64,000 nt of DNA. It comes from Anthoceros angustus. Taxonomy: Eukaryota; Plantae; Anthocerotophyta. Location: contig MU008193.1 in the NCBI GenBank assembly GCA_010909165.1, positions 1-64,000 of the forward strand, read 5' to 3'. The stretch's first letter is position 1, and every line of letters begins with the position of its first letter. A program made the translations under genes and the position numbers. The notes under the pieces were generated by a model. That model saw only the letters and a program-made list of their open reading frames with translations. It was not told where the DNA came from and searched no databases. Positions 5,004 to 61,984 of the stretch are shown here, piece after piece.

Positions 5004-5031
5004 CCTAATACTCACCCTAGTAGCCTTAGAT

Positions 5032-6877: not shown

Positions 6878-7329
6878 GCCACAAACGGCGATGAGGATGC
6901 TCTATAATGGCAAGCTAAGGATCAAAGCTTGCTCATTTTGATCCTCTATGTGGATGATATGCTAATTGTCGAACGATCGATGAGATTTCGCTTGAAGTCA
7001 AAGTTGAATGCTCATTTTGAAATGAGACGGGAGAGGCGAGCTACATACTTGGCATGCATATTCCTACAGTATATAAGCCCCGCTTATTTGTCTGACGGAA
7101 TACATTAGGTGCTTCAACGCTTCAACATGGAGAAGGGGAAGCCATTGGTACCCATTGCCTCCATATGTGAAACTTTCTGCCGGATTGCCCAAGCTCGAGG
7201 AGGACAAATGAAATGGAGAAGGTCCCATACTCATCACCGAGGGAGTTTGATGTATGCAATGATTGCTACACGCCCCACATTGCCTTTGCGTTGGAGTGGT
7301 TAGTGTTTTGCCAAACCTCGCAAGCATTG
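6878..7329 (+). pseudogene. pol: Copia B1 RT fragment
   Basis: QAKDQSLLILILYVDDML and MEKVPYSS..GSLMYAMIAT; homologous to B2 57700-58145 on the minus strand. Confidence 0.9.
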
Positions 7330-7654
7330 TGTGAACGTAAAAGTTTGGGCAACCAAATTCAAAGCCAAGAAACAAGTTTGATTTTTTTTGGCTAAGACCG
7401 ATTGAAGAGGAACATGCAGGAAAACTTCAAGATCTTGGAACTAGAGTGGAATATTGTTAGGAAGGCAAAAGGATATCCCAGAGGAAAACGGGTCAAGCGA
7501 CCCCTGCAGGCGTGAGGGCCCGAAGGTTGGTAGGTCGGGCATCACCGTAGGTCGCACACCACGCCGTAGCGAGTAAGGAGCAGATCATCATGTATCACCG
7601 GGTAGGTCGACAAATCTCGCTAAAAGGAAACTTAGAATAAAGGGGGATATCCAC

Positions 7655-7660
7655 TATATA
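7655..7660 (+). promoter_or_regulatory. Candidate TATA box for the LTR-internal (U3) ORF
   Basis: ggatatccactatatatgctca is conserved at 7646, 18120, 34057 and (minus strand, with one extra TA) ~27620-27640, ~110 nt before the coding-like region. Confidence 0.5.
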
Positions 7661-7771
7661 TGCTCATAGGGATAAATATATAAGAGTAATTAGCAAGATT
7701 AATTAGCGTAGTAGGAAAATAGGTATTATAGATCGATTAGGATTTTGGAATGATGCACAAAATCTAGGGTT

Positions 7772-10700
7772 GTGGGCGCCAGTGGCGCCCATCCAAAGGG
7801 CAAAGTGCGCTTTGGGGCGCCAACTTCCTTCGAGCTAAGGAACTCACTTCCCAAGAGATCGAGACCGGCCGAGCGCAAAAGAAGCCCGGAGGAGAAGTCA
7901 GAAGGCCATCAGCGACCAAACGAGGAAGGCGAAGGAGAAGACTGCGGAAAGGAGAAAGAGGAGGCGGAAGCACCGAGCCCAGGCACCAGAAGCTCTTCAA
8001 CCGGAAAAGAGACACATTGAAGGAGCCACACCGCAGAGAGCGCGAGTTGAGCGCTACCGGAAGAAGGTGAAGGAGAGAGAGAAGGAGGAAAATCACAACA
8101 CCTGCCTACCGGAGAAGAAATCAAGGAAGAAGGCAGCCTGAGGCTCAAGACAGGCTAACGTGTGGCCTCAGTGGGAGTGCGACAGAAAAGGAGTGTTTGG
8201 AAGTGAAGCTTGGAGCACACAACAAAATTGGGAAGTAATTCTCAGAGCGAGGGAGTAAGGAAGGTGCCATGCCTCGAGGTGGAAAAGGCAAGGGAAAGGA
8301 GCCAGCAAGGGCTCTCCTCGCGAAGAAAAGGAAAGAAAGAAAGCAGCTGGGCCCGTGGAGGTGAACTTGTGATGCCCCAATTCACTTGCTTTGCCGGGCA
8401 GCAACCCCTAGATTTGGTTGATTTTCAATGGCGGAGGAGGAGAACATCCAATCAGGATGGGTGTATGGCCGCCAATGGGCCTACACCAATTTGGAATTGA
8501 TTGAGGAGTGTTACATCAACCTCCATCAATCGGAAGCGCCGCCACGGAAGGAATGCTAGAACGGATCCTCGCTGGACCGTGAGAAGTATTCGATGTGTAT
8601 GGAAGACCGGAGGAGAGCTCCGGAATTTCTCTCTCGAAAGGTTGAATGGAGGGAAGAGGATGCCCTCCGACATCCCGCAGAGTTCCTTGACATGATGGAT
8701 GGAGGAGGAAGGCCCACGCCAAGAATGGCGGAAGACCGAGCATCAAGGAGTCAAGTGGAGGCTCTTCGCAAAGATTGTGCCGTTGGTAAATTACCAACGA
8801 CTCTTATTTCAAAGCACCAACTTCCTCCAATTTTTGTGGAAGATTTCCATGGGAGCCAAGGATTGGGGACTATCATGTATGAAGCATATACACCATCGAG
8901 AGAAGCCCTCAAGCCAAATTCGTGGATGAGGAAGGACCAAGGCCTCGCTATCTTAGCACCTATTTGGTGCATTTATGGGAAACCGAGGGACTCTCACAAG
9001 CAAGGAGCTTGAAGATGCATGGCATCCCTTTGAGGTCATCCATCTCCACCGAGGTTGGAAAAGGCCTTTGCCTTTGCATTGGAAGACGGTGGGAGGTCGA
9101 CTCCACAAAATGCTAGAGCAAGAGGAGAAGGTTCGGAGGCAACAAAGTTGCCGAGTGGGAATCCTTTCCCTGTGAGCAAGCAAGGGAAGAGCAAGAAGGC
9201 CGAAGGCCGATGGTGGTCTATGAGAGAAGGACCACAGTGAGGGGTGATGCCCAGAGTGGGGGGAGTCCCCACCATCTCCTTTGTGCCTACGAGAGGCACC
9301 CTGACACCCTAGGGGAGGCACCCAAGGGGTGGGCAGCACTCGGTAGGCCACCACCATGGTAGGTAGGCATCACAGGGGAGCAGCCACCGCTGGTAGGTGC
9401 ACCACGCCGCCAGCAAAACAGCCACGGTGGGTGGAAGGGAAGGAGAAGCATGAGGTGCCGCGAGCGCGCTCCACCATCTCCGCGCTGTGGGAGAGCGGAT
9501 GGAGCGACGAAGGCCACACAAGGCCGATGGCCCGAGAAGGCAGGAGAGCTGGAGATTTCCAAAGAAGAAGAAGGGGTGGAATTAGGACCCCTAGGAGAAT
9601 TGTGCTTGTGAAGCACTCACCGTGGATTTGAAGGCTAGAGACGCCTCCTTGTGGGCATGCCAAGAAGAAGTGAAATCTCAAGACATGGCCGGAGGAAGGC
9701 AGGACCAAATGGCAATTGGAGGCCATGGAGTCCGACAAAAGGCAGCCAAGCCGAAAAGGTCAGGAGAAGCTCCAGCGACCTATGGATCACGGAGAAGGTC
9801 TTGGAGGGAGGTTGTCAATCAAGAAAGAGCCATCCGAGCAACCACCCAACGAGACTCATGGAGATGTATATGAGGAGCATTTTGCCCAATTAGAGCAAGA
9901 GCGAAAAAAACAGAGGCTTGAAGGGAAGGTAGCGTCCAAAGAATGGACGCCAAGAAGCAGTGATGGCTACGCAAGCCATCCATCCGGACATGAAGGAAGA
10001 GTTGAGAAGAGCCCGCTTAGTTTGGAAGAGAAGCGCCCATGAAATTCAAAACCAAGAATGGAGCCGGAGCGAGAGATGCTTGGCAAGGAGGGAAGGGCTT
10101 GCTCAATAGAGGACTTGGAAGGAAAAGGTCCAGAGGAGGAGCCACAAGAAGGTGGTACATAGAATGCCGTAGTAAGGAAGAAAGGTTTTGGCAGATTATG
10201 CCCTTCGTAAAAATTGGCCACCAAGGAAGGGGAGGAGAATGTGACCTCCATGTCAAGGTGGGGAATTGACCACCTCAAGGGACGCCTACAAAGGTAGGTG
10301 TGAAGATGGAGAGTGGCCCACGGAGATTGATGATCTCCAAATGCAATATCATAGCTTGGGGCCCACCTCCACAATAGAATTTTGAAGGCCAACAATGAGA
10401 TCTTGGCCAAGAGGAGGACATTGGGTCCTCATGATGATGAAGGAGTCAGTGCAGTGAGGCCTCCGATTTTGATGAGGCCATCACGAAATGGACTCCGAGG
10501 AACTGAGGAGTCGTGAGACGAAGAGCGCCAGCGCCAAAGGTAGAAGGGCGCAGAGAGCAAGGAGGGGGGAAAGCCCACCGGGGGTCAACTACCACGGGGT
10601 GACCATTACCACGGTAGTCCGACTACCGTAGACACACCACGCCGTAGTCCCGACTACCGGTAGGGCAGCGGGCGGAGATCGGAGTCAGCCGGGGAGGCCC

Positions 10701-11431
10701 GGCCGAGGATGAAGGAGCCGGGGTCCGAGTATACCCCCGGAGGAGCAGCTGGGGTGGTGGGAGAGACAACCCCAGAGGAGACTAAGGACGGGGTCCCACC
10801 CCGAGGAAGGGGAGGGTGAAGTCTCGCCCACCTGAAGGGGAGGAGCCGGGCCGAGAGGAGACCAACGCAAAAGGCCGGAGATTAGCACATTGGTCAATGG
10901 GGAAGATTCTTTGAAGACATGCTCGATAGGTATGGACAAACCAAAGAAGGAAGGAGCAAGGAACTCACCCGAGACATCACCGATGGAGAGAAGGAGAAGA
11001 AGGAGATAGGACCGCATCACCATGGTAGGTAGTCACACCCTAGTCCGCCACTACCGCGTAGGGTGCCGATGAACGGGCGCCACCAGCGCGGATTGGAGAA
11101 AAAGGCGCTAGGTGCGGAGGGGCGCGATGGCGGAAGATACGACTTTAGGCGCCGCCCGGAGATGGAGGAAGGGGCAGATTGTACTTGCCCCACACATGGA
11201 AGGCGACAAGATCCGGGAAGGGACAAGAGCAAAGGAGGGCGAGGGAGCCAATCCTCAAGGGCCATGTCACCACCCCAAAGAGATAAAGACTAAGAATGGT
11301 CAATGACCATAAATGAGCTTTGGGGAACGGAAGGATAGGTGGTGTAGACTGACATCCTTCAAGGATGGTCTTAGGTGAAGTTACTAGAATAGAATTTACC
11401 AAGGAATAATAGATTTAGGTGCCGACATTAA
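7772..11431 (+). CDS. LTR-encoded (U3) accessory protein of family G, ~1200 codons, frameshifted; start approximate
   Basis: Peptide blocks recur in several LTR copies: MPQFTCF, GLHQFGID, NFLQFLWKISMGAKDWGTIMYEAY, YLSTYLVHLWENRGLLTSKELEDAWHP, SLWACQEEVKSQDMA, DDLQMQYHSLGAHLHNRILKANNEIL, LGEVTRIEFTK. Differences between subfamilies are synonymous or conservative. Confidence 0.75.
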
Positions 11432-11510
11432 ATGTCAAGTGTAGGAAATAATAGTTGGAAAAGGTGACTGCAGAGGGTCACCTAAGGGAGGTTGTATGTG
11501 GAAGGCCTCC

Positions 11511-11516
11511 TATAAG
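11511..11516 (+). promoter_or_regulatory. Putative retroelement TATA box (U3/R region) of G LTR
   Basis: cctataagaggaggagg at 11509 and 21910 and on the minus strand at ~23907-23924 and ~62795-62811; cctataaaaggagggg at 37025. Confidence 0.6.
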
Positions 11517-12394
11517 AGGAGGAGGATTTCACAAAGTAAAGTATCATGTCGCCCACATCGAGTCCTTTGCCATTACAGAGGAATTTCGTGGCCGTGAGCC
11601 AACGTCCTGCAGAGAGGAAGTCATGTGGTCGGAGTGCTTGGTGGAGGACTTGCTCACCGCAAGTGCCTAAACGAGTTGCTCCCTTGTGAATGGTTGCGTG
11701 AAATTGCTTTGCTTTGGGTGTGTGGCAAATGCCCAGAACTCTGCTTGAGGGTAGACTACAGTGAAAGACTCGAGGTTCTCACGCCTGTGTCAAACTCATA
11801 GCAACCGCCCAAGGAAGAACTTGCCGGTGGAGGCGACCTGTGCGCCAGCCGTAAGGGCGAGTCAAACCAAGAAGCCCGAATCGAGGTTAGAATAGGAGGA
11901 AGAGGATGAGAGATGAGAAGATGAGAGGATTAGAGGTGTAGAAGTAGTGGAGCCTAAGGGACGAATCCCAACTGCAAGTAAAAGAGCGCCCCGAGGGAGA
12001 AGTGGTCTTAGAAGTAGGACGAAATCGCGTGTGTGGGGGTCCCCGGCGCCCGTGGTAGGCTCCTCAGAGGCAGACTCGAATTGTGTTGTGTCGTGTAGGT
12101 CAAGCTTGAAGTAGGGACTCGCGGAACTCCTGGCGCCGTGGTAGGCTCGCCGAGGTGACCCAATTGTTTTGTGTCAGGGTCGAGGTTGGCGACTGCAAGT
12201 GGTGCAGAAGAGGGAGAGTAGAGGCGCCTTGCTTGTTTAGAAGGTCGAGAAGTGTGTCATCACAGTAGCGACGGCATCACAAGACCTCGAACTTTCACAC
12301 AAGTCTCATGGGACGAAACCCAACGCATTTAAGCGAGGATAAGTGTGGCTTATAGTGGAGGACCCGGGAGTGCCCCTGATTCTCCTACCATTTT

Positions 12395-12410
12395 TGGCGC
12401 CTGTCGGGAC
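12395..12410 (+). promoter_or_regulatory. G1 PBS, tRNA-Asp-like (TGGCGCCGTTGCCGGGGA type)
   Basis: tggcgcctgtcgggac after a T-run spacer, as is typical of Athila-like elements. Confidence 0.7.
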
Positions 12411-12559
12411 TTGTTGTTGAAAGTTGAAGTTTTGATCCATAGGTAATGCAAAGGGACCGAGTCGACCATGGGGTGAGAAGAGAGCGCCTAAGTTGTCATA
12501 GGGGTGACTGGTTGAGACACTAAACGGGTGTGATTTGCTTCCTCTTAACACCGTGGTTG

Positions 12560-15500
12560 GAGGACATGAGGATGGTTGCGATGTATAGGGGTCGATCTGG
12601 AGATACACGCGAAGGTCACCACCCGTCACCGCGAGATTTACGAGCTTATAAGAAACCGCTAAGGGAGAGCCACCGCCACTGTGGAGCGGGAGGAAGTAGA
12701 GACACGACCTGAGGAAGTCGCCGGACGACGGCGAGGTGCGGAACACTGACAGGGAGAAGGAGAAGAGGCGAGATCACCGCCGAGAGTGGAGGTCGAAAGA
12801 GAAGTGTGGGATTTAGGAAGGAAGGCCCGAACGAGTGTTCACAACCGCCGCGAACGCCCGCGACGCTTTGCTTCAAAGCGGACCACCTCATCTTCCATGA
12901 ACACAGGACGACGATCGCCGAGCGGGAGTTTCGTGCTTGGTCGGAGGATTTGGCGGAACGACTCGATCGAATCAGATCGATTGATCTTTGGGACGGACTA
13001 GAGGGAGGTCGCTACTCCTCGGTAGAAGATCGTGCTCGATCCCGATTGTTTCGTTACTCCGGCGAGAGGAGTTGGGACACCCGAACGAGCAACATGAGTG
13101 GAGTTGGTGGAGGAGGACCCCAACTTCATAGTCGCCAAGAATACGCCAAATTCGGGCGAAGAAAAAAGGGAGATGATGCGGAGGCGTAAGAACTTTGAGC
13201 ACGCCTCCCACGCAAATTTGGAGGATGGAGTCGCCGAGCGACCGCGATCTTCCGGACCGCGAGAGGCATGCCCAGGTGGTATGGTCATATAATTCGAAGC
13301 GCCACGGATTGGGAAGCTCTTAAGGCAGCCTTCTTGAATCGCCCGAGGGCTCGACGACACCACACCTTGGCTGTTGAGAACCCTCCAAAGGAAGAAACGA
13401 GTCGTTGTTCGATTATGTGAGAGGTTTTATGGATATCCGATCGGTTCAAATGTGCACCCGAGAGGCCGGAGATCCACCCACTGGGTACTCACAAGAACAA
13501 GCGTTGGATTGGTTTGTGAGTGGCTTCCGAAAAATGGAGGTACACCGCAGCGTGAACGAAGACGCGCCTCCGCTTAGCCGAGGAATGGGAGTCCGAGTGG
13601 GAGAAGGAGGAAGAAGAGGCGGTCATAAGAAGAGGAAAGGATCGAGGAGATCTAGCCTCGCTCCTCACCTCCTCCAGCGCCGCCCTTCCACATCGAAAGT
13701 GAGGACATGAACTCAAGGCTCCACATCGGATGAGGAATCGAGAAGGCCTACGACAATGAGGAAGGACCTGAGAAGGTCAAAACGACAAGAGGAGGCGGAA
13801 CGCGATTGGAGAAGGAGAGGAAAAGACACGTCGGATGGAGAAGGGAGAAACGTGCAGCGGGAGGAGGGATTGCCGGACAAGTGGAGGCTTTGACCAAGTT
13901 GACCGAGTTGGAGGTCAAGGCGGAAGAATCAAGCCACGAAGATCTCCTTCGCCCGCGAGCGCTTGGTGTGATGTCATCAAACGGACACACCAACCGAGAA
14001 TGTATTCGTGCACCGCGACACGTAAATCATGTGGAAACCGTTATGCCGGAGATTATTGGTACGGACGAGGTACCAGTACAAGCGGCCACCGGAAGCCACC
14101 ACCTCAATCAATGAGAGCGACTTACCACCGACCGCACTGCCTCAAGGTATGGCTCACGCGACATCACGGACAATGGAGACCGATCCGCACACATGGCAAT
14201 TTGTGGGTGTACATAATCGGAGCCCCGTGACACTACTCAACGAATGCCCGTAACCACGAAGCAAGTAGGTTATGTACCCTTGCCGTGTATGTAAGGAATT
14301 GGGACATAAAATGGGGATCCATGCACGGGTGACGCGAGGACACCACACCAGAGTCGTTACGCGCAGCGGAAGAGGCACGACCCAACACAAACCCATGTGA
14401 CCACAACACTGTTGAAGGTGGAGGCGAGTACCTCGAGGATTCGCAGACGCCGTGATCGTGGAGGAAGGATACGAGGAGAAAGCGCGGATGAAAGGTTGAT
14501 GGTGGCTGTGGTAACCACTGTGTCGGGCCGTCAAGAAAGGACGGATCGGAAAACGGCGGGCGATGAAAGGAAAACGGAGGAAGGTGAGGGATGACTCACC
14601 ATGGCCCGAGACGCGTTCAGCGCTAAGAGGAGCAGAACAGACCGCCCAGCAGGAAGGCATCACCTAGTCCGGCACTACGGATAGACCACAGACTACCCCT
14701 GAGGGCGAGCAGAGACCAAAGGAGGGGAGGAACGAATGCTTCCTCCCGACATTAGTCGAGAAGTAGCGCAATGCTGGAAGATGAATTAAACAGCTCACCC
14801 GACACGAAAGGTGGGTCGCAGAGGGAATCGTGATCCACTGCATGGGAACCCACCGATAGGAGGGTCATGGAATCAACTTTACCAATAAGGTCGGAGTCGA
14901 CCAGCTGCTGCCGGGAGGAAACTTTGTGATAAAATCAGCACGACGATTACTTGACCGCAATTTGTGGTCACCGAGATGCTTGTTACAGAAGTCCAAGATC
15001 CCGCAAAATTGTGAAGGAGGCGATCGTGGGAATCTCAAGCGGAGGGAGAAAGCGCGGAGGTAAATGTGGTCGAACTCGCTGATTTAGGGGCACCCGAGAT
15101 TGAGGTTGAGATTGCGGTGTTTGGTGCCCACGTGTAGATTCGGATCGGAGTCAACTTGATGACGGAGGAGACGCTCATCAACTCGATTCACCGAGTTTCA
15201 CCCGCCCGAGTATTTTTAATGATGGCCGACTGCATAAGGAGAAAGCCACTGGGGTGCCGAGGAACGCCCACTATAATTGGGGACTCACCTTCCATCTTAC
15301 CTACATTGTGATGCCTTTCATTTAGGCTATAAGGTTTTGATAGGTAGGCCTGGTTGTATGGTACTCGCGTGTTTTTGATTTTGGTCGAGTGGCATCACCT
15401 TCAAGTCCAAAGAGACCAAGGGCGATTGCTTTGTGTCATGGAGCAAGGCTCTTATGAGGGGAGTCTGCATCACCGACGGGTACACCCTGTAGCACGGGGT

Positions 15501-17790
15501 AAGCTCCTCAAAGGATCGAGCATATCGGGGTCCTCACGAGGTCAAATAAAGAGTGATTTGGTGTACCTGCCATATAGAGGAAGTCATAGAGGAGTCTCGA
15601 GGATGAGGCCCATAGAGAAGGAGTAGCCTTTGGAAGGGTTATGAGCGAGACTTTCCTAAGAGGGATCCTAACCGATATGATGAGGGAACATATGTAGATC
15701 CCTGTGAGAAGACCTAGAGTTAGAACCAGCAAGGTAGTCAAGATTTCTAAGTACCCAGCATAGAAAAGATGAGTTTGAGGGTCCTTAGAGAATATGTTGA
15801 TGTGTTTGCCTTCAAGATTACATATGACGGATACCAAGAACTGGAATACATCGAATAGATGGAGGGCAAGACTCGAGGATCAACACAGTCAATCCCAAGT
15901 ATTCCATGGTTGTTAAGGATCACCGACCAATACTTGAGCGGGTGAGGATTTCGGCTCACCGAGTGGGTCGCCCCATCGGATTGTACCAAAGAAGCAGGAA
16001 AGGTCGGGTGTCAAGATTTCAGAAAACTCAACGAGGCAACGGAAGGATCATCACTTTACCTTTCATGGACAAAGGTGTTGACACGAAGGGACGAGATGGC
16101 GCTCGATGGATATTCGGTAATCAAATTTCAAAGGAGGATCAGACAAGACAACGTCACACGGATTGAACTATGCCTATTCAAGCTCCTTTCAGGAATGCCC
16201 CGCCACTTTCCAGGGTGAACGCGATCTTCAGATTTCCGAGGAAGTTCATGGAGGTATTCTGATGATTGGTGTGGGAGAAGGAACGCATTTAGACCATTTG
16301 AGGCAATGTTTCGAAAATGCGTGGAGAACATGAAACTTCATCCGGAGTGTTATTTTGGCATGACGGAGGGCATATTGCATCGAGTTGCAGAGATTGGTGT
16401 AGATAAAGAGAAGGTAGCGTGATAGTAGATGGACGCACTGACGAAGGCAAAAGTAGCTGTAGGGCTAGGGGTACAGAGGTTCATCAAGGATTTCGCCAAG
16501 AGGGAGCCTTGTTGACACAATTAACCAAAAGGATACACCCTTCGAATGGACAACGCTGAGAGGCTTTCAGGAAGGAGGAGCGACCAACTCAACCGGATTG
16601 GGGAGGCTTCACGATACGTGGATGTGTCCGCCATGCTATTGGGACCGTGAGTCGAAGATGAGAAGAAACGGGATCATCCGATTTATGCTGGAGATCTGGA
16701 TCAAAGAACTACTCAACCAATGGAGCGGAGGGCCTGGTATCATTTACCTTGTAAGAAGTTTGCACTATCCGCAACGATGTCGATCATTTGCGAACAAGCC
16801 GTTTGTCGTGAAGGAGCGATGGCTAGCTGCAAGAGTTTGACTATGACGAGAAACCAGCGGAAGCAACATCGAACGCCGGATTTCATTTCTCAAGTGGAGA
16901 GCGACTTGCCACCATGACCGATTTCACGAGGAGTTGGTTACCATGCCCAAGTCAGAAGGAGGTGAGCATGTTAAGGGCCCAAGAATTGACTGCAAACCTG
17001 CCCAGAGGGTCAACCAAGAAGAAGGAGCAGGTGAGTCATGCAGGACAATTTGGAACCGAGGGAGATGGATGGCGCCAGCATGGGCAAGGAGGAGGCCAAT
17101 TTCAAGGTGAGCACTAAAGTGGAGGCCACACGTTGGCAAGGGAAAACCGCATGAGACACCTTTTGAGCGAGAACACTTGGCGAGGTCGCCTCGCCATGAG
17201 TCAGAGGAGGAGATGCCTAAGATTGACGGGAAGGACATCCCATGACAAGCTTGAAGATTCAGGGGATTGGCATCTGCAACCTCAAACACCATGGAGGTGC
17301 AACAAGTCGAGGATGCACATGTACCGATGGATGCATACGTTCATTGTGGCTTACAGACTCATGAAGGAAGGTAACCACCAAAAGACCCCTTATTATCTAA
17401 CGTATGGCATGTCACCGTGATGCGTGGAGTTTGAAGTACCCACCTGTAATCATGGAGGACGAACGATGACCAGAGGATAGCTGTAGTTAGACTAGAATCA
17501 TTCAGAGCAGAAGAACGAGGGAGGATGCTTTAGAAGAAACGCATGGATCTGTGAACTCGTAAAAGGCATGATGGGAGGTTGAGGAAGCAAGAGGCTATCG
17601 TGGACGGGATTTGGTTCTTCTATATGATAGTCGTACCTAGACTTTCCAGGAAGCTTAGGCTAAGGTGGATGGGACCTTACGAGGTGGCGCAGATACGAGA
17701 ATGGATCTGCAACTGTATTGGGGGAACATCCACCGAGTAAATGGGTGGAAGGTTAAGAAGTACCTCTCACCGAGTTCTGTTTTGAGGACG
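12560..17790 (+). pseudogene. gag-pol: G1 gag-pol, frameshifted, integrase largely deleted
   Basis: Gag YSQEQALDWFVSG; knuckle array 13960-14320; protease DS.SGVNL (~15140) and LIGRP; RT DFRKLN and FMEVFxDD (~16245); RH YVDVS and QEFDY; INT C-terminus RVNGWKVKKYL. Confidence 0.88.
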
Positions 17791-17798
17791 CAAACAGT

Positions 17799-17810
17799 GA
17801 GGTGGGGAGT
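17799..17810 (+). promoter_or_regulatory. G1 polypurine tract
   Basis: gaggtggggagt(a) immediately before the LTR start tgtggaacg. Confidence 0.85.
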
Positions 17811-17811
17811 A

Positions 17812-20800
17812 TGTGGAACGAAAAGTTTGGGCAACCAGCCCAAAAGAGCCCAAAAGACGAACAAGTTTGATTTTTTTGGCTAAGAACGATTGAAGAGGAC
17901 ATGCAGGAAATTCTCAAGAATCTTAACTAGAGTGGAATATTGTTAGGAAGGCAAAAGGATATCCCAGAGGAAAACGGTCGGGACCCCGCATTTGCGCGAG
18001 GGCCCAAGGTTGGTAGGTCGGCATCACCGAGGTCGCCACACCACGGTAGGTCGAGAAGGAGCGACTATCGTGTAAGCCGCATGGTAGGCCGATCAAAAAA
18101 GGAAACTTAGAATAAAGGGGGATATCCACTATATATGCTCATCAATAGAATAAATATAAGAGTAATTAGCAAGAGATTAATTAGGAAGTAGAAAATAGGT
18201 ATTATAGAATTAGGATTTTGGAATGATGCACAAAATCTAGGTTGTGGCCGCCAGTGGCGCCCATCCAAAGGGGCAAAGTGCGCTGGGGCCCAACTTCCTT
18301 CGAGCTAAGGCGAACTCACTTCCCAAGAGATCGACCGGCCGGAGCGCAAAAGAAGCCGGAGAAGCCGCCATTGCCGCCGCTCCGCGACCCACGAACGAGA
18401 GGAAGGCAAGGAGAAGACTAGAAAAGGAGAAAGAGGAGGCGAAGCGAGCGCCCAGGCACCGAGAAGCAATACGGAAGAGAGACACATTGAAGGAGCCACA
18501 CGGGCAGAGCGAGTTGGAGCGCCGGAGCAGCAAGGTGAAGGAGAGTGAGAGTAGAAGGAGGAAAATCAGACACCTGCGCCGCTGGAGAAGAAATCGAGGA
18601 GACGGGAGGCTCAAGACAGGCTAAGTGGTTTCAGTCGGGGCCACGACGAGAAAAGGAGTGTTTGAGAAGCTAGCACACAACGCCAAATTGGGAAGTAATC
18701 CTTCCTAGGAGCGAGGAGTAAGGAAGGTGCCATGCCTCGAGCTGAAAGGCAAGGGAAGGAGCCACCGGCAAGGGCTCTCCTCGCGAGGAGGAAGGAAGAG
18801 AGGTGCTGCGCCCGCTGTGGGAGGTGAACTTGTGATGCCCCAATTCACTTGCTTTGCCGCAGCCCAACCCCAGACGGTTGATTTTCGTGGGCGGGAGGAG
18901 GAGAACATCCACAGGATGGGTGTATGGCCGCCAATGGGCCTAGGAATTGATTGAGGAGCACATCAACCTCCATCAATCCGCCGCCACCGGAAGGAATGCT
19001 AGAACGGATCCACGCTGACCGTGAGAAGTATTCGATGTATGGAAGACCGGAGGAAGAGAGCTCGAATTGCTCTCTCGAAAGGTTGAATGGGGGAAGAGGA
19101 CAGCCTCACCGACATCCCGCAGGAGTTCCTCGACATGATGGATGGAGGAGTGAAGCCCACGCCAAGAATGGCCGGAAGACCGAGAGCATCAAGGAGTCAA
19201 GTGGAGGCTCTTCAAAGATTGTGCCGTTGGTAAATTACCAACGCACCTCTTATTTCAGCACCAACTTCCTCCAATTTTGTGGAAGATTTCCATGGGAGCC
19301 GATTGGGGACTATCATGTATGAAGCGTACATACACCATCGAGAGAAGCTCTCAAGCCAAATTCGTGGATGAGGAAGGACCAAGGCTGCTATCTTAGCACC
19401 TATTTGGTGCATTTATGGGAAACCGAGGGACTCTCACAAGCAAGGAGCTTGAAGATGCATGGCATCCCTTTGAGGTCATCCATCTCCACCGAGGTTGGAA
19501 AGGCCTTTGCCTTTGCATTGAAGACGGTGGGAGGTCGACTCCACAAAAATGCTAGAGGCAAGAGGAGAAGGTCTGAGGCAACAAAGTTGCCGAGGGGAAT
19601 CCTTTCCACAGGAGCAAGGGAAGAAGAAGCCAAGAAGGCCGGATGGTGGTCTATGAGAGAAGGACCACAGAGGGGTGAGCCCAGAGTGGGGAGTCCCCAC
19701 CATCTCCTTTGTGCCTACGAGAGGCACCGGCTGCACTACCCCGGAGGGAGGCGCCACCCAAGGGGTGCTCACCGTAGCACCATGGTAAGGCGTACTACCG
19801 GGGCAGCCACCAGAGAGGCACCCCACGCCGCCAGCAAACAGCCTACTAAGGTGGAAGGGGAAGGAGAAGCGAGGTGCCGCGAGCGCCACCATCTTCCGCC
19901 GGTGGGAGGCGGATGGAGCGAAGGGGCTGCCACGCGATGGCGTGAGAGCTGGAGATTTCCAAGAAGAAGAAAGAAGGGGTGGAATTAGGACCCTAGGAGA
20001 ATTGCGGCTTGTGAAGCACTCAGTGGATTTGAAGGCTAGAGATGCTTCCTTGTGGGCATGCCAAGAAGAAGTGAAATCTCAAGACATGGCCGGAGGAAGG
20101 TGGACCAAATGGCAATTGGAGGCCATGGAGTCCGAGGCACCAGCGAAAAGGTCAGGAGAAGCTCCAGACCTGGACCCGGACGAGAAGGTCTTGAGGGAGG
20201 TTGGCTCAATCAAGAAAGAGCCATCCGAGCAACCACCCAACGAGACTCATGGAGATGGAGGCGGAGGAGCATTTTGCCCAATTAGAGCAAGAGGGCAAAA
20301 CAGAGGCTCGGAAGGAGAAGGTAGTCCAAAGAAATGGACGCCAAGAACAGTGATGGCTAAGCCATCCAGATCCGGACATGAAGGAAGAGTTGAGAAGAGC
20401 CCGCTTTAGTTTGGAAGAGAAGCGCCCGAGGGGAAATTCAAAACCAAGAACTGTGAGTCGAGCGAAAAGATGCTTGGCAAGCGAGAGGGGGCTTGCTCAA
20501 CGAATAGAGGACTTGGAAGGAAAAAGGTCCCAGAGGAGGAGTACCACAAGAAAGTGGTACATAGAATGGTAGGAAGCCAAGGTTTTGGCATTATGCCCTT
20601 CGCAAAATTGGCCAGCCAAATTAAGGAAGCAAGGGAGGAGAATGTGACCTCCATGTCAAGGTGGGGAATTGACCACCTCAAGGGACGCCCAAAGGTAGGT
20701 GTGAAGATGGAGAGTGGCCCACGGAGATTGATGATCTCCAAATGCAATATCATAGCTTGGGGCCCACCTCCACAATAGAATTTTGAAGGCCAACAATGAG

Positions 20801-22826
20801 ATCTTGGGCTTCAAGAGGAGGACATTGGGTCCTCATGATGATGATGAAGGAGCCGCAATAAAAGTAAGAGGCCTCCGATTTTGATGAGGCCATCACGAAA
20901 TGGACTCCGAGGAACTGAGGAGTCGAGACGAAGGAGCCACCGAGCGCCAAAGGTAGAAGGTGGCAGAGCAAGGAGGGGAAAGCCCACCTCCGGGGTCAAC
21001 CTACCACGGTGGTGCCACCACTCCGCCGACCACTGTGTAGACCACACACGCCGTAGTCCGCCAGACCACCGGGTAGGTGCCCGGGCTGGAGATCGGGAGC
21101 CGCTGAAGGCCGAGGATGGTCCGTATACCCGGAGGAGCAGCTTGGGGTGGTGGGAGACAACCCCACCGGAGGAGACTAAGGACGGGTCCGACCTCGAGGA
21201 AGGGGAGGGGTGAGAAGTTCCCGCCCCACGGATAAGGGAGGAGCCAGGCCGAGAGGAGACCAACGCAAGAAGGCCCAAGGAGTTAGTAGCAACATGGTGA
21301 ATGGGGAAGATTCTTGAAGACATGCTCTGATAGGTATGGACAAACCAAAAAGGAGCAAAGAGGAACTCACCTGTGAGACATCACCGGCGGAGAGGAAGGA
21401 GAAGAAGGAGATAGGTACCGACTACCATGGTAGGTAGTCGCCATAGTCCGCATCACCGCGTAGGGTGCCGATGAACGGACCAGCGGCGGAAGCCGGAGAA
21501 AAGGCGCTAGGTGCGCGGGGAGGCGCATCGATGGAAGATAACAGACTTTAGGCGCCGCCGCTGGAGATGGAGGAAGGCAAGATGGTACTTGCCCCACACA
21601 TTCTAAGGCGACAAGATCCGGGAAGGGACAGAGCAAAAGGAGGGCGAGGGAGCCAATCCAAGGGCCATGTCACCACCCCAGAGATAGACTAAGAATGGTC
21701 AATGACCATAAATGAGCTTTGGGGAACGGAAGGATAGGTGGTGGATGACATCCTTCAAGGATGGTCTTAGGTGAAGTTACTAGAATAGAATTTACCAAGG
21801 ATGCATAATAGACTAGGTGCCGACATTAAATGTCAAGGGTAGGAAATAATAGAATTGGAAAAGGTGACCCGCAGAGGGTCACCTAAGGGAGGTTGTATGT
21901 GGAAGGCCTCCTATAAGAGGAGGAGGATTTCACAAAGTAAAGTATCATGTCTTGCGCCCACGCTCATCGAGTCCTTTGCCATTACAGAGGAATTTCGTGG
22001 GCCGTGAGCCAACATGTCTGTAGAGAGGAAGTCGCGGTCGGAGTGTTTGGTGGAGGACTCCGTGCCTAAACGAGTTGCTCCCTTGTGAATGGTTGTGAAA
22101 TTGCTTTGCTTTGGGTGTGTGGCAAATGCCTGAGAACTCTCGGCTTGAGGGTAGACCAGGAAAGACTGGAGGTTCTCACCGTGTGTCAAACTCATAGCAA
22201 CCGCCCAAGGAAGAACTTGCTGGTGGAGGCGGACCCTGTGCAGCCAGCCGTAAGGGCGAGTCCAAGAAGCCCGAATCGAGGTTAGACTAGGAGGAAGAGG
22301 ATGAGGAGATGAGAAGATGAGTAGAGGATTAGAGGTGTAGGTGTTAGTGGAAGGCTGCAGAGCCTAAGGGACGAATCCCAACCGCAAACGAGCCCCGAGT
22401 GGAGAAGTTTGGTCTTAGAAGTAGGGACGAATCGGTGTGAACTGTGGGCGCCCGTGGTAGGCCTTTGTCACCGAAAGGTGACTCGCAATTGTGTTGTTGT
22501 AGGTCAAGTTTGGTCTTAGAAGTAGGGACGAAATCGCGGTGAACTGGGGTCCCGGCGCCTGGTAGGCTCCTTGTCACGAGGTGACCCGCAATTGTTTTGT
22601 GTGTGGGTCGAGGTTGGCGATTTTTCAGCAAGGCAAGTGGTGCACAGAAGAGGGAGAGGGTGCCTTGCTTGTTTAGAAGGTCGAGAAGTGTGTCACCGCA
22701 GTAGCGACGGGCATCACAAGACCTCGAACTTTCACACAAGTCTCATGGGACTAAACCCAACGTGGCGACAGGATAAGTGTGGCTTATAGTGGGAGGACCG
22801 GGAGTGCCCCGATTCTCCCTACCACA
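17812..22826 (+). repeat. G1 3' LTR (~5.0 kb)
   Basis: tgtggaacg...ctaccaca, followed by TSD cattg. Confidence 0.92.
18244..21829 (+). CDS. Second copy of the G-family U3 ORF (3' LTR), frameshifted
   Basis: Same peptide blocks as 7772-11431, with frameshifts mostly at different positions. Confidence 0.72.
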
Positions 22827-23352
22827 CATTGGGAGGCGAAAGGAGTTATGAGGTATCCGAATGGTACAAAAGCGCATATGGTTTAGTAGTGAAGATGCAT
22901 GTGTGTTCATGCGCATGCGGTGGATATGGACAAAAAGGAGTCCACATCGTGTTATGTCTTCATGTGCATGGAGGCGCCTTATGCATCTCTGCTGGCAAGC
23001 CGCATTACGCTATCTACCACAGAGTTTAGTATGTTAAAAGAATCGAGGCTTTCAAGGAAGCTATATGGCTTGCCTGCTTAGTAGACTTGGGGATCATGGT
23101 TATCGCCAAATAAGGTATTCTTGAATATCCAATTGGCAAAGAATCCAAAGGTTTCATGCGAAGACTAAACATGTGGATGTGAAGTATCATATTCGAGAGT
23201 GTTAGATGACAAGAGGTACAACTGGAGGTTCACACCACCTCAACCACTGATATTCTTACCAAGGGACTCATGAGCAATTTCCCAAGTCTGACACCTGACA
23301 TGGGCAAGGAGAAGTCCATTCTCCCGCAAGGTAAATTCCTTTAAGTGGGAGG
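22827..23352 (+). pseudogene. pol: Copia B1 RT end, RNase H and PPT (aagtgggagg 23343-23352)
   Basis: HWEA continues from 7325; DMDK..ST; FHAKTKHVDVKYH. Confidence 0.88.
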
Positions 23353-23432: not shown

Positions 23433-24008
23433 CCCGGCACCCCGATCTCGACCTAGCGCCACACTTATCCCACTCGTGACGCTGGGTTTACTTGCAGACT
23501 AGTGTGATTCGGGCTGTGATCACCAACTCCCACCTCTAATCACACATCTTCTCATCTCTTCCTCAACCTCATCCATCTCCTTCTACTTCCCTTACGAACC
23601 GCCACTGCACCGGTCCTCACCACCAAGTCTCTTCACCAAAGGGCCGTGGTTTGACAACAGCGCCACCTGTGAGTCTTTCGGCCTCACCGCCGAGTGTTCC
23701 TCGGCATCGCCACACACACCTGTGCAAAGCAATTTCACAACAACCATTCACAAGGGGAGCAACTGTTTAGGCACTAAGGAGCAAGTCCTCCACCAAGCAC
23801 CCGACCACCGCGATTTCTCTACCGTGACGCTGGCTCACCGCACGAAATTTCAGAATGGCAAAGGACTGAGGGTGGAAGCGCAAGACATGATACTTTACTT
23901 TGTGAAATCCTCCTCCTCTTATAGGAGGCCTTCCACATACACCTCCCTTAGGTGACCCTACCGCAGTCACCTTTTCCAATATTTCTATTATTTCCTCACC
24001 GCCAAGAT

Positions 24009-27000
24009 TTAATGACCTCAAGTCTATTGTCCGTCCTTGGTAAATTCTATTCTAGCAACTTCACCTAAGATCATCCTTAAAGGATGTCACCACATCACCT
24101 ATCCTTTCTATTATTCTCTCATCATTTATGGTCTTGACCATTCTAGTCTTCTTGCTGGTGACATGTCCTTGTGGATTGGCCCTCGCCTCCTTTGCTCTGC
24201 CCCTTCCCATCTTGTCGCTTCCTAATGTGTGGGGCAAGTACACCGCCTTCCTCCATCTCGGCGCCTAAAGTCCTTCCTTCCATCAATCGCGCTCCCGCGC
24301 ACCTAGGCGCCTTCTCCATCACCGGTCGCGCCTGCTCATCGTCTACCGCGTAGTCCGGCAGACTATAGGCCGACCTACCATGGTAGTCCTTTTCCTTCTT
24401 CTCCATCGGTGAGGACTTCGGTCAAGATCTCCATTTTGCCTCGCTTGATTTGTCCATACCTACCATAGAGCATCTTAAAGAGTCTTTCCCCATTGTCACC
24501 ATGTCCCTAATCTCCGGCCCTTTTGCATCTCTCTCCCCGGCCCTGCTTCCTTATCCGTGGGGAGGGAACTTCTCACCCTTCCTTCTTCTCACGGGTCGGT
24601 CCCCGCCCCTGTCTCCTCCGTGGGTTGTCTCCCACCACCGCCTCCGGGGTATACACCGGACCCCGGCTCCTTCATCTCACCAGCCTCCGCCCGACCCAAC
24701 AGCCCGCTCCACGGGCACTCACCCCTAGTCCGCATCACCGCGAGTGGTTCCACCACGTAGTCCGCAGACCATGGTAGGTGGTCACCTACCATGGTAGGTG
24801 ACCCCGTGAGGGTGGCTGTCCCCTCCTTGCTCTCCGCGCCATCTTCCACCTTGGCGCCACTCCCTCATCTCCGACTCTCGATTCCTGAGTCCATTTCACG
24901 ATGGCCTCATCAAAATCGGAGGCCTCCGCCGCACTGTTGCAGCCCCTTCATCATCATCATGAGGACCCAATGTCCTCCTCTTGGCCAAACGCAAGATTTC
25001 GTTGTTGGCCTTCAAGATTCTATTGTGGAGGTGAGCCCCAAGCTATGATATTGCATTTGGAGATCATCAACTCCGTGGGGCCACTCTCCATCTTCACACC
25101 TACCTTGTAGGGCCCTTGAGGTGGTCAATTCCCCACCTTGACATGGAGGGTCACATTCTCCTCCTCACTTCTTTAGCCGGGCTGGCAATTTGGCTCAAGG
25201 GCAATCCGCCCAAAATCGCCGCTCACTACCAAGATTCTGCACCACCTTCTTGTGCTCCTCCTCTGGAACCTCCTTTGTTCCAGCCGCCATTTGCTTGGCA
25301 ACTTTTCCTTCTCTTGCCAAGCCTCAAGCTCTTGTACTAGGTCTTGAGCTTCTAGCTCCGCGCTTCTCCTCCAAATTGAACCGATCCTTCTCAATTCCTC
25401 TTCCATGTCCCGGATTTTGATGGCTTGGGTAGCCATCACTGCTCATGCGGCCCAATTGCTGGACCGCTATCTTCCCTTCCGAGCCTCCGCTTTGCCCTTT
25501 CGTTCTTGCTCTAATTGGGCAAAATGCCTCCGCCTTTGCCTCCATGAATCGCTTGGTCAATGGCTCTCTTCCAGACACCTTCCCTTCCAGATTTTCCGCT
25601 CCATCCATGAGGTCGCTTGGAGCTTCTCCACGCCTTTTCCAGCTTGGCGCCTTTCATCGGACTCCATGGCCTCCAATTGCCATTTAGTCCCCGCCTCCTC
25701 CGCCATGTCTTGGGCTTTCACCTCTTGGCATGCCCACAAGGAGGCTGCTAGGTCTCTAGCCCCCTTCAAATCCACACGGTTGAGTGCTTCACAAGCACTC
25801 AAAGAATTCTCCTAGGGGTCCTAATTCCACCCTCCTTCTTGCTGGAAATTTCCAGCTCTCCCGCATGACCACGGCGCGGCGCTGGTCCCTCACCGCCGCC
25901 ATCCGCCTCCCACTGCGGGAAATGGTGGGCTCGCGCGCGCCGCTACCGCTTCTCCTTCCCCCGCCGAGGGCCGCCGCCAGGGCTGCCACCGGGTAGGTCG
26001 CCTCACGGTAGTCCACCTACCGTGGTAGACGATCACCACTGGGTAGTCCGCCCACCCCTCAGGCTGCCTCTTCCACCCATGCATGGTGGGGACTCCCACC
26101 CTTGGGCCATAGTCCTCCTCTCATAAACCACTACTTCGGCCCTCTCGCCTCTCCCCGCTTGCCCTGGGGAAAAGCCTCCCACTCCGCAACCGCCCACTTC
26201 TTCCGCCTAGCATGCTTGTGGAGGTCCGACCTCCCACCGCCTTCCTCAATGCAAAAGGCAAAGGCCTTTTCCAAGCTTGGCCGGAGATGGATTATCTCAA
26301 GGATGCCAAGCATCTTCCACCTTGCTTGTGAGAAGCCCCTTCCGCTTTCCCACAAATGCACCAAATAGGTGCTGAGGTAAGGCTGGGCCTTCCTCATCCA
26401 CCGAATTTGGCTTGAGGAGCTCCTGGTGGATGTAGGCCTCATACATGATGGTGCCCCAATGCTTGGCTCCTCATGGAAATCTTCCACAGGAAGTTGGTGT
26501 TAAATAGGACGTTCACCAACCCCAAGACAATCTTTGCAAGAGCCCACTTCAGCTCCTTGATGCTCTGCCTTCCACCCATTCTTGGCATGGGCCTTCACCC
26601 TCCATCCATGTCGAGGAACTCCGGAATATCGAGAGGGCTGTCCTCTTCCTCCATTGACCTTTCGAGGAGAGCACCGAGCTCTCTCCTCCGCCTCCATACA
26701 CGAATGCTCCTTACGGCCCAACAATGGGATCCGTCGAGCATTTCTCCAATGCGGCAGGCTCGAGGATGGAGGTTGATGAAACATCTCAATCAATTCCAAA
26801 TTGGTGTAGGCCCATTACGGCCATACACCCATCCCAATTGGATGTTATCCTCTCGCCCACCGAAAATCAACCAAATGGGTTGTTGCCCAAAGCAAGTGAA
26901 TTGGGGCATCACAAGTTCACCTCTCGGCGCACGCCGCTTCTTTTCCTTCCTCGAGGAGAGCCCTTGGCCGGCTCCTTCCCTTGCCTTTCCACCGAGGCAT

Positions 27001-27500
27001 GGTGCCTTTCTTCTCCAAATGCTTCAAAGGAAGGAATTACTCCCAATTGGCAATCTAGGCTTGCTCAAACGCTCCTTCTCCAGAGTGGTGAAACCCCCCG
27101 AGGCACAATTCACGTTAGGCTTGATGACGCCCCACCGCTGCCAATTTCCTTGCGATTCTCTTCGTGGTGCCGCCATGGGTGGTCGAGGTCCTCCCTTCAA
27201 CCGCCAATTTCTCAACTTGCGCTCACTGATGCTCCTTCCAATGCTCGCGCTTGAGAGACTTCCTCCGTGGCGCATGCCTCTGCTCTCTCCTTCCTCCTCT
27301 GGCTCAACTGGCTAGGTTCTCCCTCCTTCACCGTTCTCCTTCCTTCACCGCTCTCCTTCCTCCTTCCTGTAGCGTGGCGGCGATGCGCATGATAGCAACC
27401 TTCCTTCTCCTCTCGCCTTACGCCCATCCAGCCCCTCAAGTGAGGATGCCTGCTCAAGAGAGAGTTGCAAACTGCACTTTGCCTCCTGGATGTCCACCGA
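24009..27500 (-). CDS. G2 LTR U3 ORF, frameshifted
   Basis: YLSTYLVHLWE, SLWACQEVKAQDMAEEAGTKWQLEAMESD and GEVARIEFTK on the minus strand. Confidence 0.7.
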
Positions 27501-27974
27501 GGCCAACCCTAGATTGGTTCAACATTCTAATTACCTAAGCCTAAATTACCTATTTTCCCTTATCCGCTTCCCAAATTAATCACCTTCTAATTAATCCTAT
27601 TTATCTACTCCCTATTGGTGAGCATATATATAGTGGATATCCTCATATTAATTTCTTTGCCGAGATTCCGTAACCACCGCGGTAGTCCACCACCACTGGT
27701 TCCGCTTTTTCTCACCACCGGGCGTGGTTACCAGTAGTCACATACCACCTTTCTGACCGCCTCCGCCGTCTGGGGTCGCTGACCTGCTTCTTCCCGGGAT
27801 ATCCTTTCACTTCCTAACAATATTTTACAACTCAGCTTCAAGATTCTCAAATTTTCGGCATGTTCCTTTTCAATCGCTTAGCCAAAAAATCAAACTTGTC
27901 TTCTCGCTTTGGGTTGCCCAAACTTTATGCTCCACATACTCCCACCTCACCCGCTTGCGCCCTCGCAAACAACA

Positions 27975-36700: not shown

Positions 36701-37012
36701 CTTACGTTGGCCAAGAGGAGGACATTGGGTCCTCATGATGATGATAAAGGAGCTGCAAGTGCAGCCTGAGGCCTCCGATTTTGATGAGGCCATCAAAATG
36801 GACTCCGAGGAACTGAGGAGTCGGAGGTGAGGAGCCGCGCCAAAGGTGGAAGGTGGCGCAGAGAGCAAGGAGGGGGAAAGCCCACCCTCGGGGTCACCTA
36901 CCATGGTGACCACCACCACCAGTCCGCTGCTACCGTGGGGAGCCACACCACGCCGGGACTACCGGGTAGGGCAGTGCGCGGAGCTGCTGGGGAGTTGGGA
37001 GGCCCGGCCAAG
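33736..37012 (+). repeat. G3a: 5' part of a family G LTR (contains most of the U3 ORF), inserted in G2 gag
   Basis: Starts tgtggaacgaaagtttgggcaac; colinear with 7330-~10700; ends at an N. Confidence 0.88.
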
Positions 37013-41210: not shown

Positions 41211-41236
41211 TTCATCCTAGCGACTAATGGGCCTAT

Positions 41237-41870
41237 TTAAAATAACCTCAAAATTTTAGCCCATATTGTTTTATTTTTCACAAACTTATTTCTTCCTCCT
41301 CTATCTCAAAGAAGCAAATATTGTCTTTTCCTTGTTCCTCATAGACGGTCCATAAACATCCTGATTTATATTGGAATAATAATTAATGCCAGTTTTTGTA
41401 TGCATTAAATCAACCATATATGTTTTTCCTAACACCAATCACACTTACGGAAAACATGAGTAGTGTGCCCTGGAAAATCCAAACTATAGGCACATTTGGT
41501 TTTGATCATATGGATTCCCGTCACTTCACAAACATATGAGTATGGGACATCCACCTTGCTAGGGCCTCCTTTTGTCAATACTACACTTTATCATAATCAC
41601 CTAATGGGAGATATTCGGATCGTAAAAGCCTATACTCTTCACTTCATTAGGCTCAGATAGTTGTAGTCTTCGCACCTGTGACACACAAGGATCAAGAAGG
41701 TTAGAACAATAAGACAAATTGAAAAGGAAACAAAACTAGAAACTCAAATTAGGAATCAACATATACCTTTTCATTCTCATTTTCCTTTCCTTTCCTTTTC
41801 TTTTCCTTTCCATCCTTCTTCCCCTTTTCTCTCCTTCATCCTCCACTGCACCACCCGCACTGCATGTGCC
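41237..41870 (-). CDS. Antisense accessory gene of copia A2 (3' part; 5' part displaced by the H1 insertion)
   Basis: KSIGFYDPN..LPLGD..VLTKGGPSKVDVPYSYVCEVTGIHMIKTKCAYSLDFPGHTTHVFRKCDWC..VYEEQGKDNICFFEIEEE..WAKILRLF*. Confidence 0.72.
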
Positions 41871-46231: not shown

Positions 46232-46234
46232 TTT

Positions 46235-51540: not shown

Positions 51541-51567
51541 GAGACGCCAACAGTGAGAAGGGGAGTA

Positions 51568-61810: not shown

Positions 61811-61984
61811 TCACTGCAACTCCACGAGCTCACCTCAGCTAGAAAATTCTAGCATCACAACACAACCAAAACCAAGGCTCCGATACTGCTTGAAGGATCG
61901 TATTTAAAGACAAGAGGAGAGGAGGAGGCAAGTGTAACCTCTCACATTGAGATGAGGCTTGAGGGTATTTATACCTCCAATAGG

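What the first reader, a model, noticed from the sequence alone, without database searches (positions are those of the whole stretch)
7772..11431. Gypsy elements with a ~1200-codon gene inside the U3 region of 5 kb LTRs
Seen: G1 is bounded by TSD, PBS and PPT, so the 5 kb repeats are true LTRs. About 3.7 kb of each reads as one frameshift-broken protein that ends ~80 nt upstream of a conserved TATAAG box. Five copies (G1 5' and 3', G2, G3a, G4) preserve the peptide where they overlap. For example G1 IDDLQMQYHSLGAHLHNRILKANNEIL versus G4 VDDLKSRYHNLGAHLHNGILKANIEIL, with synonymous and conservative changes. Known: plant gypsy accessory ORFs (Athila env-like, Ogre ORF1, Retand/Grande antisense ORFs) lie in the internal region, whereas U3-encoded genes are known from retroviruses such as MMTV sag. 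Inference: this gene is duplicated at every retrotransposition and would survive intact in solo LTRs, so it could act in trans after gag-pol is lost.
Basis: partly seen in the sequence, partly recalled or inferred. Interest (0 to 1): 0.92.

Follow-up and report, generated by a model that had tools for sequence, protein, structure and literature searches.

The report
Anti-silencing-like gene inside retrotransposon LTRs
Two families of plant jumping genes in this window carry a protein gene inside their 4-5 kb terminal repeats, normally control DNA, and its likely intact relatives are predicted to fold like the transposon anti-silencing protein VANC21, so it may help the element escape host silencing.

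Summary
Real, with corrections. G1 (7330-22826) has true 5 kb LTRs (perfect 5-bp target duplication, PBS, PPT). A sense-strand gene lies inside them, but it likely runs about 8269-11300 (1,000-1,100 codons), not from 7772. Its breaks are mostly long-read errors. It behaves like gag-pol and unlike the LTR flanks in a strand-contrast codon test. Bryophyte-type relatives from metagenomes carry intact versions: inside the LTR in L001, between two polypurine tracts in L003, suggesting capture by a switch of plus-strand primer. The link from G1's gene to this family is moderate, G5's strong. The intact N-domain model (pLDDT 94) has one standout match among 48,161 solved chains: VANC21-DNA (Z 6.8, 198 of 220 residues; next Z 2.0). 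A coiled coil follows; no transmembrane helix. Best reading: a relocated Athila-type accessory gene, likely a DNA-binding anti-silencing factor; function, expression and U3 placement are untested. The scan noted LTR-encoded genes before on other DNA, several called fungal; I found none for this family.

The parts
7330..12390 (+). G1 5' LTR
7325..7329 (+). left target-site duplication (CATTG)
7652..7665 (+). TATA-like box, candidate promoter of the LTR gene (inferred)
   Evidence: present 305-331 nt into the LTR in 4 of 4 copies
8269..9100 (+). LTR gene: start codon and conserved globular N-domain
9101..9550 (+). LTR gene: variable linker (inferred)
   Evidence: strand contrast -11.3 and -1.6; homologs have a disordered linker here
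9551..10520 (+).
10521..11300 (+). LTR gene: low-complexity tail; end uncertain
   Evidence: synonymous share 98 of 229 vs 83 of 248 in LTR flanks, p 0.04
11489..11502 (+). look-alike of the PPT/LTR junction, possible relic second PPT (speculative)
   Evidence: pattern chosen after seeing it
11511..11516 (+). TATAAG, candidate promoter of the genomic RNA (inferred)
12395..12410 (+). primer-binding site resembling the tRNA-Asp type
   Evidence: compare FIDEL PBS
13087..17770 (+). G1 gag-pol; integrase core appears missing
17799..17811 (+). G1 polypurine tract
17812..22826 (+). G1 3' LTR with second copy of the gene (start about 18733)
22827..22831 (+). right target-site duplication (CATTG)
23440..27936 (-). 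G2 3' LTR with the gene, directly after G2's PPT
27940..33670 (-). G2 gag-pol
33736..37012 (+). G3a, LTR with the gene, cut at an N
41865..46231 (+). G5 5' LTR (second family) with related gene from about 42459
46400..51530 (+). G5 gag-pol
51568..53180 (+). G5 3' LTR, cut short, holds the N-domain
61960..64000 (-). G4, 3' part of an LTR, runs off the window

Best explanation
The 5 kb repeats are true LTRs of a bryophyte-type Ty3/gypsy element and contain a sense-strand protein gene, likely the lineage's 3' accessory gene moved into the LTR, whose product likely binds the family's own DNA and would relieve host silencing as VANC does. Shown: LTR ends, gene position, coding-like divergence, intact relatives, their position inside (L001) or just outside (L003) the LTR. 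Predicted: globular N-domain, linker, long helices, disordered tail; VANC21-like fold. Inferred: capture by use of the upstream polypurine tract for plus-strand priming, which moves the LTR edge without rearranging the RNA; own promoter near 7655; nuclear oligomer acting in trans, also from solo LTRs. My odds by step: real gene in the LTR 0.9; homologous to the intact family 0.8; in U3 0.75; PPT switch 0.5; DNA/chromatin factor 0.6; sequence-specific anti-silencing 0.35-0.4.
For: LTR anatomy. Sense-minus-antisense codon score: gene segments positive in 10 of 15 (mean +6.8), gag-pol 4 of 6 (+7.9), LTR flanks 0 of 7 (-17.2); Mann-Whitney p 4e-4; synonymous share in the N-domain 75 of 122 vs 83 of 248 in flanks. 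5 of the 9 best-ranked loci examined have a long sense ORF after pol; all five group with G1, G2, G5 by RT-RNase H. Profile of 124 intact domains: top of 2,428 window fragments is a G3a piece, E 0.018; frameshift-aware z 12.4 and 9.5 (G5), 6.5, 4.1, 3.7, 3.9 (G1a, G1b, G3a, G2), colinear over profile 32-206 in G1a, antisense and reversed at background. Model pLDDT 93.8; VANC21-DNA Z 6.8, rmsd 4.2, 198 aligned, next Z 2.0. Helices 281-427; VANC21 and the Athila domain are modelled as coiled-coil oligomers (PMC13547354). No hydrophobic 19-mer of 1.6 or more in 27 homologs. Private short motifs in L001-L005, 4 of 5 past Bonferroni.
Against: G1-family profile scores are inside the tail of unrelated tiles: 28.4-33.5 against up to 34.4 at the lenient penalty; 20.1-27.0 against up to 22.9 at the stiff one; hhalign probability only 27.6%. 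The coil profile gives z 0.7-4.7. Substitution periodicity is significant for gag-pol (p 0.002) but not for the gene (p 0.10, 0.09, 0.80). Segments share G1a and the aligner favours synonymy. Z 6.8 is below the tool's caution line of 8, identity 12%, and the fold was predicted for L002, not for the window's protein. Motif enrichment also passes in 20 of 52 other loci, is modest in G1a (10 vs 4.7) and G1a and G5 have no 7-mer past Bonferroni. No start site, RNA, protein or methylation data.
Confidence: 0.45

Rival explanations
1. Same gene and layout, but the protein acts in the replication cycle (particle scaffold, RNA or integration-complex trafficking, target-site tethering), not in anti-silencing.
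For: Coiled coil and basic tails (8 or more K/R in the last 25 residues in 15 of 27 homologs, fragments included) fit many nuclear roles; such roles are proposed for plant accessory ORFs (PMC7264820). The fold match is middling.
Against: The only clear structural match is a DNA-bound anti-silencing protein covering 90% of the domain; family-private motifs.
Confidence: 0.3
2. The gene lies in R/U5 and is read as a 5' leader ORF of the genomic RNA started from the upstream TATA-like box, like the 5' ORFs of Ogre or Retrosat2.
For: TATA-like box conserved in 4 of 4 copies near 7655; no start site mapped.
Against: A second TATA box lies downstream at 11511, about 880 nt before the LTR end; in L003 the homolog lies 3' of pol and before a 1 kb LTR, which maps it to U3 after a PPT switch; R+U5 would be 4.7 kb.
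Confidence: 0.12
3. Envelope-like membrane protein for cell-to-cell movement.
For: Position 3' of pol in the RNA; weak ties to Transposase_32 and ATHILA families that include 'env-like' ORFs.
Against: 0 of 27 homologs with a transmembrane-grade segment; soluble helical model.
Confidence: 0.05
4. In the G1 family the stretch is non-coding purine-rich LTR DNA, a long-dead relic, or a separately inserted element.
For: No copy reads through; periodicity test not significant; no database hit from window pieces.
Against: Strand contrast like gag-pol; conserved start; no inverted repeat pair bounding it among 6 pairs found; same place in G5 and L001; breaks equally dense in pol.
Confidence: 0.08

Closest known systems
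Athila 3' sense extra ORF ('env-like'; Pfam Transposase_32 PF20167, ATHILA PF03078)
   Same: Non-chromovirus gypsy with tRNA-Asp-like PBS; sense ORF 3' of pol in the RNA; L005's ORF hits PF20167 (E 2.5e-4, below cut-off); Atlas leads 0.89 and 0.88; L005 aligns weakly to the family (E 0.009).
   Different: Described ORFs lie in the internal region (PMC7264820, PMC6317226); here inside the LTR. Pol groups apart from the 40 other loci in the tree.
VANC21 of Arabidopsis VANDAL21 (PDB 9LNK), structurally related to MAIN
   Same: Predicted fold of the intact N-domain (Z 6.8); domain plus coiled coil; element families with private short motifs.
   Different: VANC is encoded by Mutator-like DNA transposons of dicots; 12% identity; binding and demethylation untested here; motifs here are 5-7 nt and dispersed or loosely clustered, not shown as tandem arrays.
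MMTV sag and the U3-overlapping nef/bet genes of retroviruses (recalled, no call)
   Same: Protein gene within or reaching into the LTR, copied at every cycle.
   Different: Unrelated protein, about three times longer, in a plant retrotransposon.
Phygy/Selgy and Tat Z clades of bryophytes and lycophytes
   Same: Nearest named RT relatives are liverwort proteins, 63-73% identical; pol fills the internal region, as described for Phygy.
   Different: Phygy are called short and prefer NCGN targets; G1 is 15.5 kb with a 5-bp target. No reference set was on hand to assign the clade.
Retand/Grande antisense TRP28 ORFs and Ogre PMD ORF1
   Same: Accessory ORFs with proposed DNA-binding or nuclear role, some with SMC-like coils.
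   Different: Antisense or 5' internal; no PF04195 or PF10536 hit listed.

Membership tests
Full-length LTR retrotransposon (G1) | TG..CA LTR pair, target duplication, PBS, PPT | tested here: met
Athila clade | PBS for tRNA-Asp | tested here: inconclusive
   G1 PBS resembles it with missing bases; L001 and L003 match with one change
Athila clade | [quoted passage not shown] | tested here: not met
   PPT follows pol directly in G1, G2, G5; met only in L003
Athila clade | RT-RNase H groups with reference Athila | tested here: inconclusive
   separate clade (support 1.0) from the other loci, but no named references in the tree
Phygy | short element, NCGN target preference | tested here: not met
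   15.5 kb, CATTG target vs PMC6317226
Tat | additional RNase H domain | not tested
   no aRH profile on hand; G2 has a low-complexity stretch between RNase H and integrase
Transposase_32 / ATHILA ORF-1 proteins | Pfam score above gathering cut-off | tested here: inconclusive
   L005 21.4 bits vs cut-off 45; not among the 25 families listed for 80 homologs; 0 of 13 window pieces
VANC anti-silencing proteins | VANC/MAIN-like fold | tested here: inconclusive
   Z 6.8, rmsd 4.2, 198 aligned, on a model of homolog L002
VANC anti-silencing proteins | coiled-coil region | tested here: met
   helices 281-427 in the L002 model; weak PDB sequence hits are coiled coils
VANC anti-silencing proteins | family-specific target motif accumulated in non-coding tandem repeats | tested here: inconclusive
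   private motifs in 4 of 5 intact loci, but also 20 of 52 other loci; modest in the window
VANC anti-silencing proteins | sequence-specific DNA binding and demethylation in trans | not testable with these tools
   needs EMSA/DAP-seq and methylomes
VANC anti-silencing proteins | encoded by a VANDAL (Mutator-like) transposon | tested here: not met
   host element is Ty3/gypsy; works-like claim only
Envelope proteins | transmembrane helix | tested here: not met
   0 of 27 intact or long homologs
U3-encoded gene (MMTV sag layout) | ORF wholly inside the LTR | tested here: met
   both LTRs of G1; N-domain in both LTRs of G5
U3-encoded gene (MMTV sag layout) | upstream of the genomic RNA start, with own transcript | not testable with these tools
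   two TATA-like boxes only

The most novel reading that the evidence does not exclude
A bryophyte gypsy lineage packs a VANC-like, sequence-specific anti-silencing gene and its binding motifs into the LTR, so every LTR, solo ones included, is a self-contained unsilencing cassette; and the Athila 'env-like' proteins are anti-silencing factors, not envelopes.
Probability: 0.25. Interest if true: 0.92.

Novelty: new variant of a known kind. Interest (0 to 1): 0.72.

Why it matters
The role of plant retrotransposon 'env-like' ORFs is a long-open question; a 2026 paper lists anti-silencing by Athila ORFs as still to be investigated (PMC12844716). A VANC-like fold, intact natural homologs and candidate motifs make it directly testable. 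[quoted passage not shown] L003 versus L001 suggests a simple route by which LTRs grow and swallow a gene. If solo LTRs express it, removing elements by LTR recombination would not remove their anti-silencing activity.

Tried and rejected
No host genome held. Homolog search with 8560-9009 found nothing; that piece is largely off the conserved frame. Pfam on window pieces: nothing relevant. Representative search with a G3a piece: 3 hits, all bacterial repeat proteins, artefacts. Atlas on that piece: unnamed clusters, low recognition. Viral and metagenome scans with it, and viral scans with pol: no loci. Best-of-three-frames synonymy test rejected: its gag-pol control failed (p 0.35). The second read laying gave only 3 substitution rows, too few for a codon test. 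No RNA holder listed; depth of X1 was not used as copy number. Foldseek on PDB and viral libraries and the second look: no match; sequence search of PDB gave only weak coil hits. Fold search of the full-length model was not run. A frame-anchored dN/dS was not obtained, so selection rests on the contrast test. Two segments were dropped as not alignable. The 3.5 kb repeat 1699-5218 / 37872-41413 was considered as an LTR pair; it holds copia polymerase sequence. Wright and Voytas 2002 and the VANC21 structure paper are not held. Complex prediction not used. No supplements were read; those of PMC6317226 and PMC10508981 may list LTR lengths or ORFs that bear on novelty.

Full report
1. The element. 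Self-comparison shows a 5 kb direct repeat at 7330-12390 and 17812-22826 and related stretches G2, G3a and G4. The pair starts with TG, ends with CA, is flanked by CATTG on both sides, is followed by a PBS-like sequence and preceded by a polypurine tract. It interrupts a copia RT stretch (reading by eye). These are true LTRs. G1 seems to lack the integrase core that G2 has. No host genome is held.

2. Sequence quality. Between the two LTRs there are 173 substitutions and 359 gaps, 284 of them 1-2 nt. RT-RNase H needs 34, 36 and 25 breaks in G1, G2 and G5 over 460 positions. Contigs of run X1 differ by indels at 47 sites in 401 nt, some at nearly full depth (X1 may be the source sample). The frameshifts are therefore mostly errors and say nothing on whether copies are intact.

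3. Is it coding? Substitution spacing was significant for gag-pol (p 0.002) but not for 7772-11431 (p 0.10, 0.09, 0.80 in three pairs). A best-frame test failed its control. A frameshift-aware codon alignment, run on both strands, separated the classes: sense minus antisense per 100 codons was negative in 7 of 7 LTR-flank segments (mean -17.2), positive in 10 of 15 segments of 8269-11300 (+6.8) and in 4 of 6 gag-pol segments (+7.9); 2 segments were dropped as not alignable. Sense synonymous shares: N-domain 75 of 122, coil 90 of 195, tail 98 of 229, gag-pol 139 of 293, flanks 83 of 248, and 7772-8268 64 of 171 (p 0.41 against flanks). The aligner inflates synonymy and segments share G1a, so only the contrast counts. 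An ATG in the same context stands at 8269 in 4 of 4 copies. The gene likely spans 8269 to about 11300.

4. Relatives. The G2 RT piece is nearest to Riccia and Marchantia proteins; P0012 of Riccia scores best over pol. A pol alignment fetched 80 metagenome loci. Of the 9 best-ranked that I listed, L001-L005 carry a long sense ORF after pol. In L001 the sequence after the PPT is the inverted repeat of the 5' LTR end, so the ORF starts about 515 nt inside the LTR; in L003 it lies between two PPT-like tracts and a 1 kb LTR follows the second. In L002 and L004 PPT and TG follow pol directly, but the other end is not on the contig; L005 is unclear. On a 66-row RT-RNase H tree (loci above L045 left out, no named references, midpoint root) G1, G2 and G5 join the liverwort proteins (0.87) inside a clade with L001-L005 (1.0). 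A homolog search gave 248 proteins, 120 listed, none with a Pfam family; its query held three window pieces.

5. Link to the window. A profile of 124 domains, none from the window, ranks a G3a piece first of 2,428 fragments (E 0.018). Frameshift-aware scoring gives z 12.4 and 9.5 for the two LTRs of G5, a second family in this window, and 6.5, 4.1, 3.7 and 3.9 for G1a, G1b, G3a and G2; reverse strands are at background. Against real tiles the G1-family scores do not all clear the tail, and hhalign gives 27.6%. I put homology at 0.8 for the G1 family, higher for G5. No inverted repeat pair bounds the gene, and the same position in families with about 50-58% pol identity argues against a separate insertion.

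6. The protein. The L002 N-domain models at pLDDT 93.8; the full protein is domain, disordered linker, helices 281-427 and disordered tail. None of 27 long homologs has a transmembrane-grade segment. L005 hits Transposase_32 below cut-off and the Atlas points to Transposase_32 and ATHILA at 0.89 and 0.88; PMC11728184 reports PF20167 and a nuclear signal in a sunflower Athila ORF (passages). Foldseek found nothing. The wide structural search gave 2 of 48,161 chains at Z 2 or more: VANC21 bound to DNA at 6.8 over residues 7-217, and one at 2.0. This is below the tool's caution line but isolated, near domain-wide and biologically apt. VANC binds short motifs that differ between families and removes methylation from cognate elements (PMC5735166, passages); VANC resembles MAIN, and VANC and the Athila domain are modelled as coiled-coil pentamers (PMC13547354, passages).

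7. A prediction tested. Each intact locus has its own enriched 6-7-mer, shared only between the close pair L001 and L002; 4 of 5 pass Bonferroni, but so do 20 of 52 other loci. A 5-mer found in G2 is raised in G1a (10 vs 4.7) and G1b (13 vs 4.5), not in G5's LTR (2 vs 2.3). This fits but does not single out anti-silencing; repeated motifs are common in LTRs.

8. Mechanism. In RNA order L003 reads pol, PPT, ORF, PPT, LTR; G1, G5 and L001 read pol, PPT, LTR with ORF. Priming at the upstream tract would move the LTR edge and take in the gene (inference). A look-alike of the PPT/LTR junction just before TATAAG in G1a, G1b and G2 could be a relic (pattern chosen after the fact; it would leave a very short old U3). 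Direction of change is not tested. A TATA-like box near 7655 could drive the gene.

9. Novelty. The review PMC7264820 (parts 1-2 of 3) and passages of PMC6317226, PMC3485330, PMC10508981, PMC1142308, PMC2844528, PMC7466625, PMC11963269, PMC12885004 and PMC12844716 place plant extra ORFs in the internal region or do not mention ORFs in LTRs. Ten searches listed no report of an LTR-internal gene in bryophyte elements or of a VANC-like fold in a gypsy ORF; subscription papers and supplements were not seen. The retroviral examples are recalled. The scan holds 40 notes with these words on other DNA, 8 shown, several called fungal, none for this protein by sequence or for bryophytes by words. Verdict: real, a new variant of a known kind, interest 0.72.

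Noticed in passing
window 41865-53180 (+): G5, a GC-rich second gypsy family with a 4.4 kb LTR holding a related gene; the clearest link to the intact homologs.
   Followed up: yes
L003 3717-7600: Circularly collapsed element with the homologous ORF between two PPT-like tracts, outside a 1 kb LTR; its sister L004 has TG right after the first tract.
   Followed up: partly
window 17000-17370: G1 appears to lack the integrase core present in G2.
   Followed up: partly
window 37013: Single N; the LTR parts left (G3a) and right (G3b) differ in closeness to G1 (81% vs 71%) and share no target duplication, so probably an assembly join; G2's 5' LTR is missing here.
   Followed up: partly
window 1699-5218 and 37872-41413: 3.5 kb direct repeat, 89% alike, holding copia-type polymerase sequence; one tile here scored 34.4 with the N-domain profile, probably chance.
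   Followed up: partly
window 60844-61900: Island of 74% GC with long open frames on both strands; two tested frames have no Pfam hit.
   Followed up: partly
L001 whole contig: Its private 7-mer occurs 42 times, also throughout gag-pol, not only in the LTR.
   Followed up: no
window 8477-8522, 17606-17839: Contigs of run X2 (RNA only by guess) touch the gene and the pol-LTR junction at under 90% identity: a diverged relative, no evidence of expression.
   Followed up: no
window 29150-29700 (-): Low-complexity stretch between RNase H and integrase in G2, longer than in P0012.
   Followed up: no
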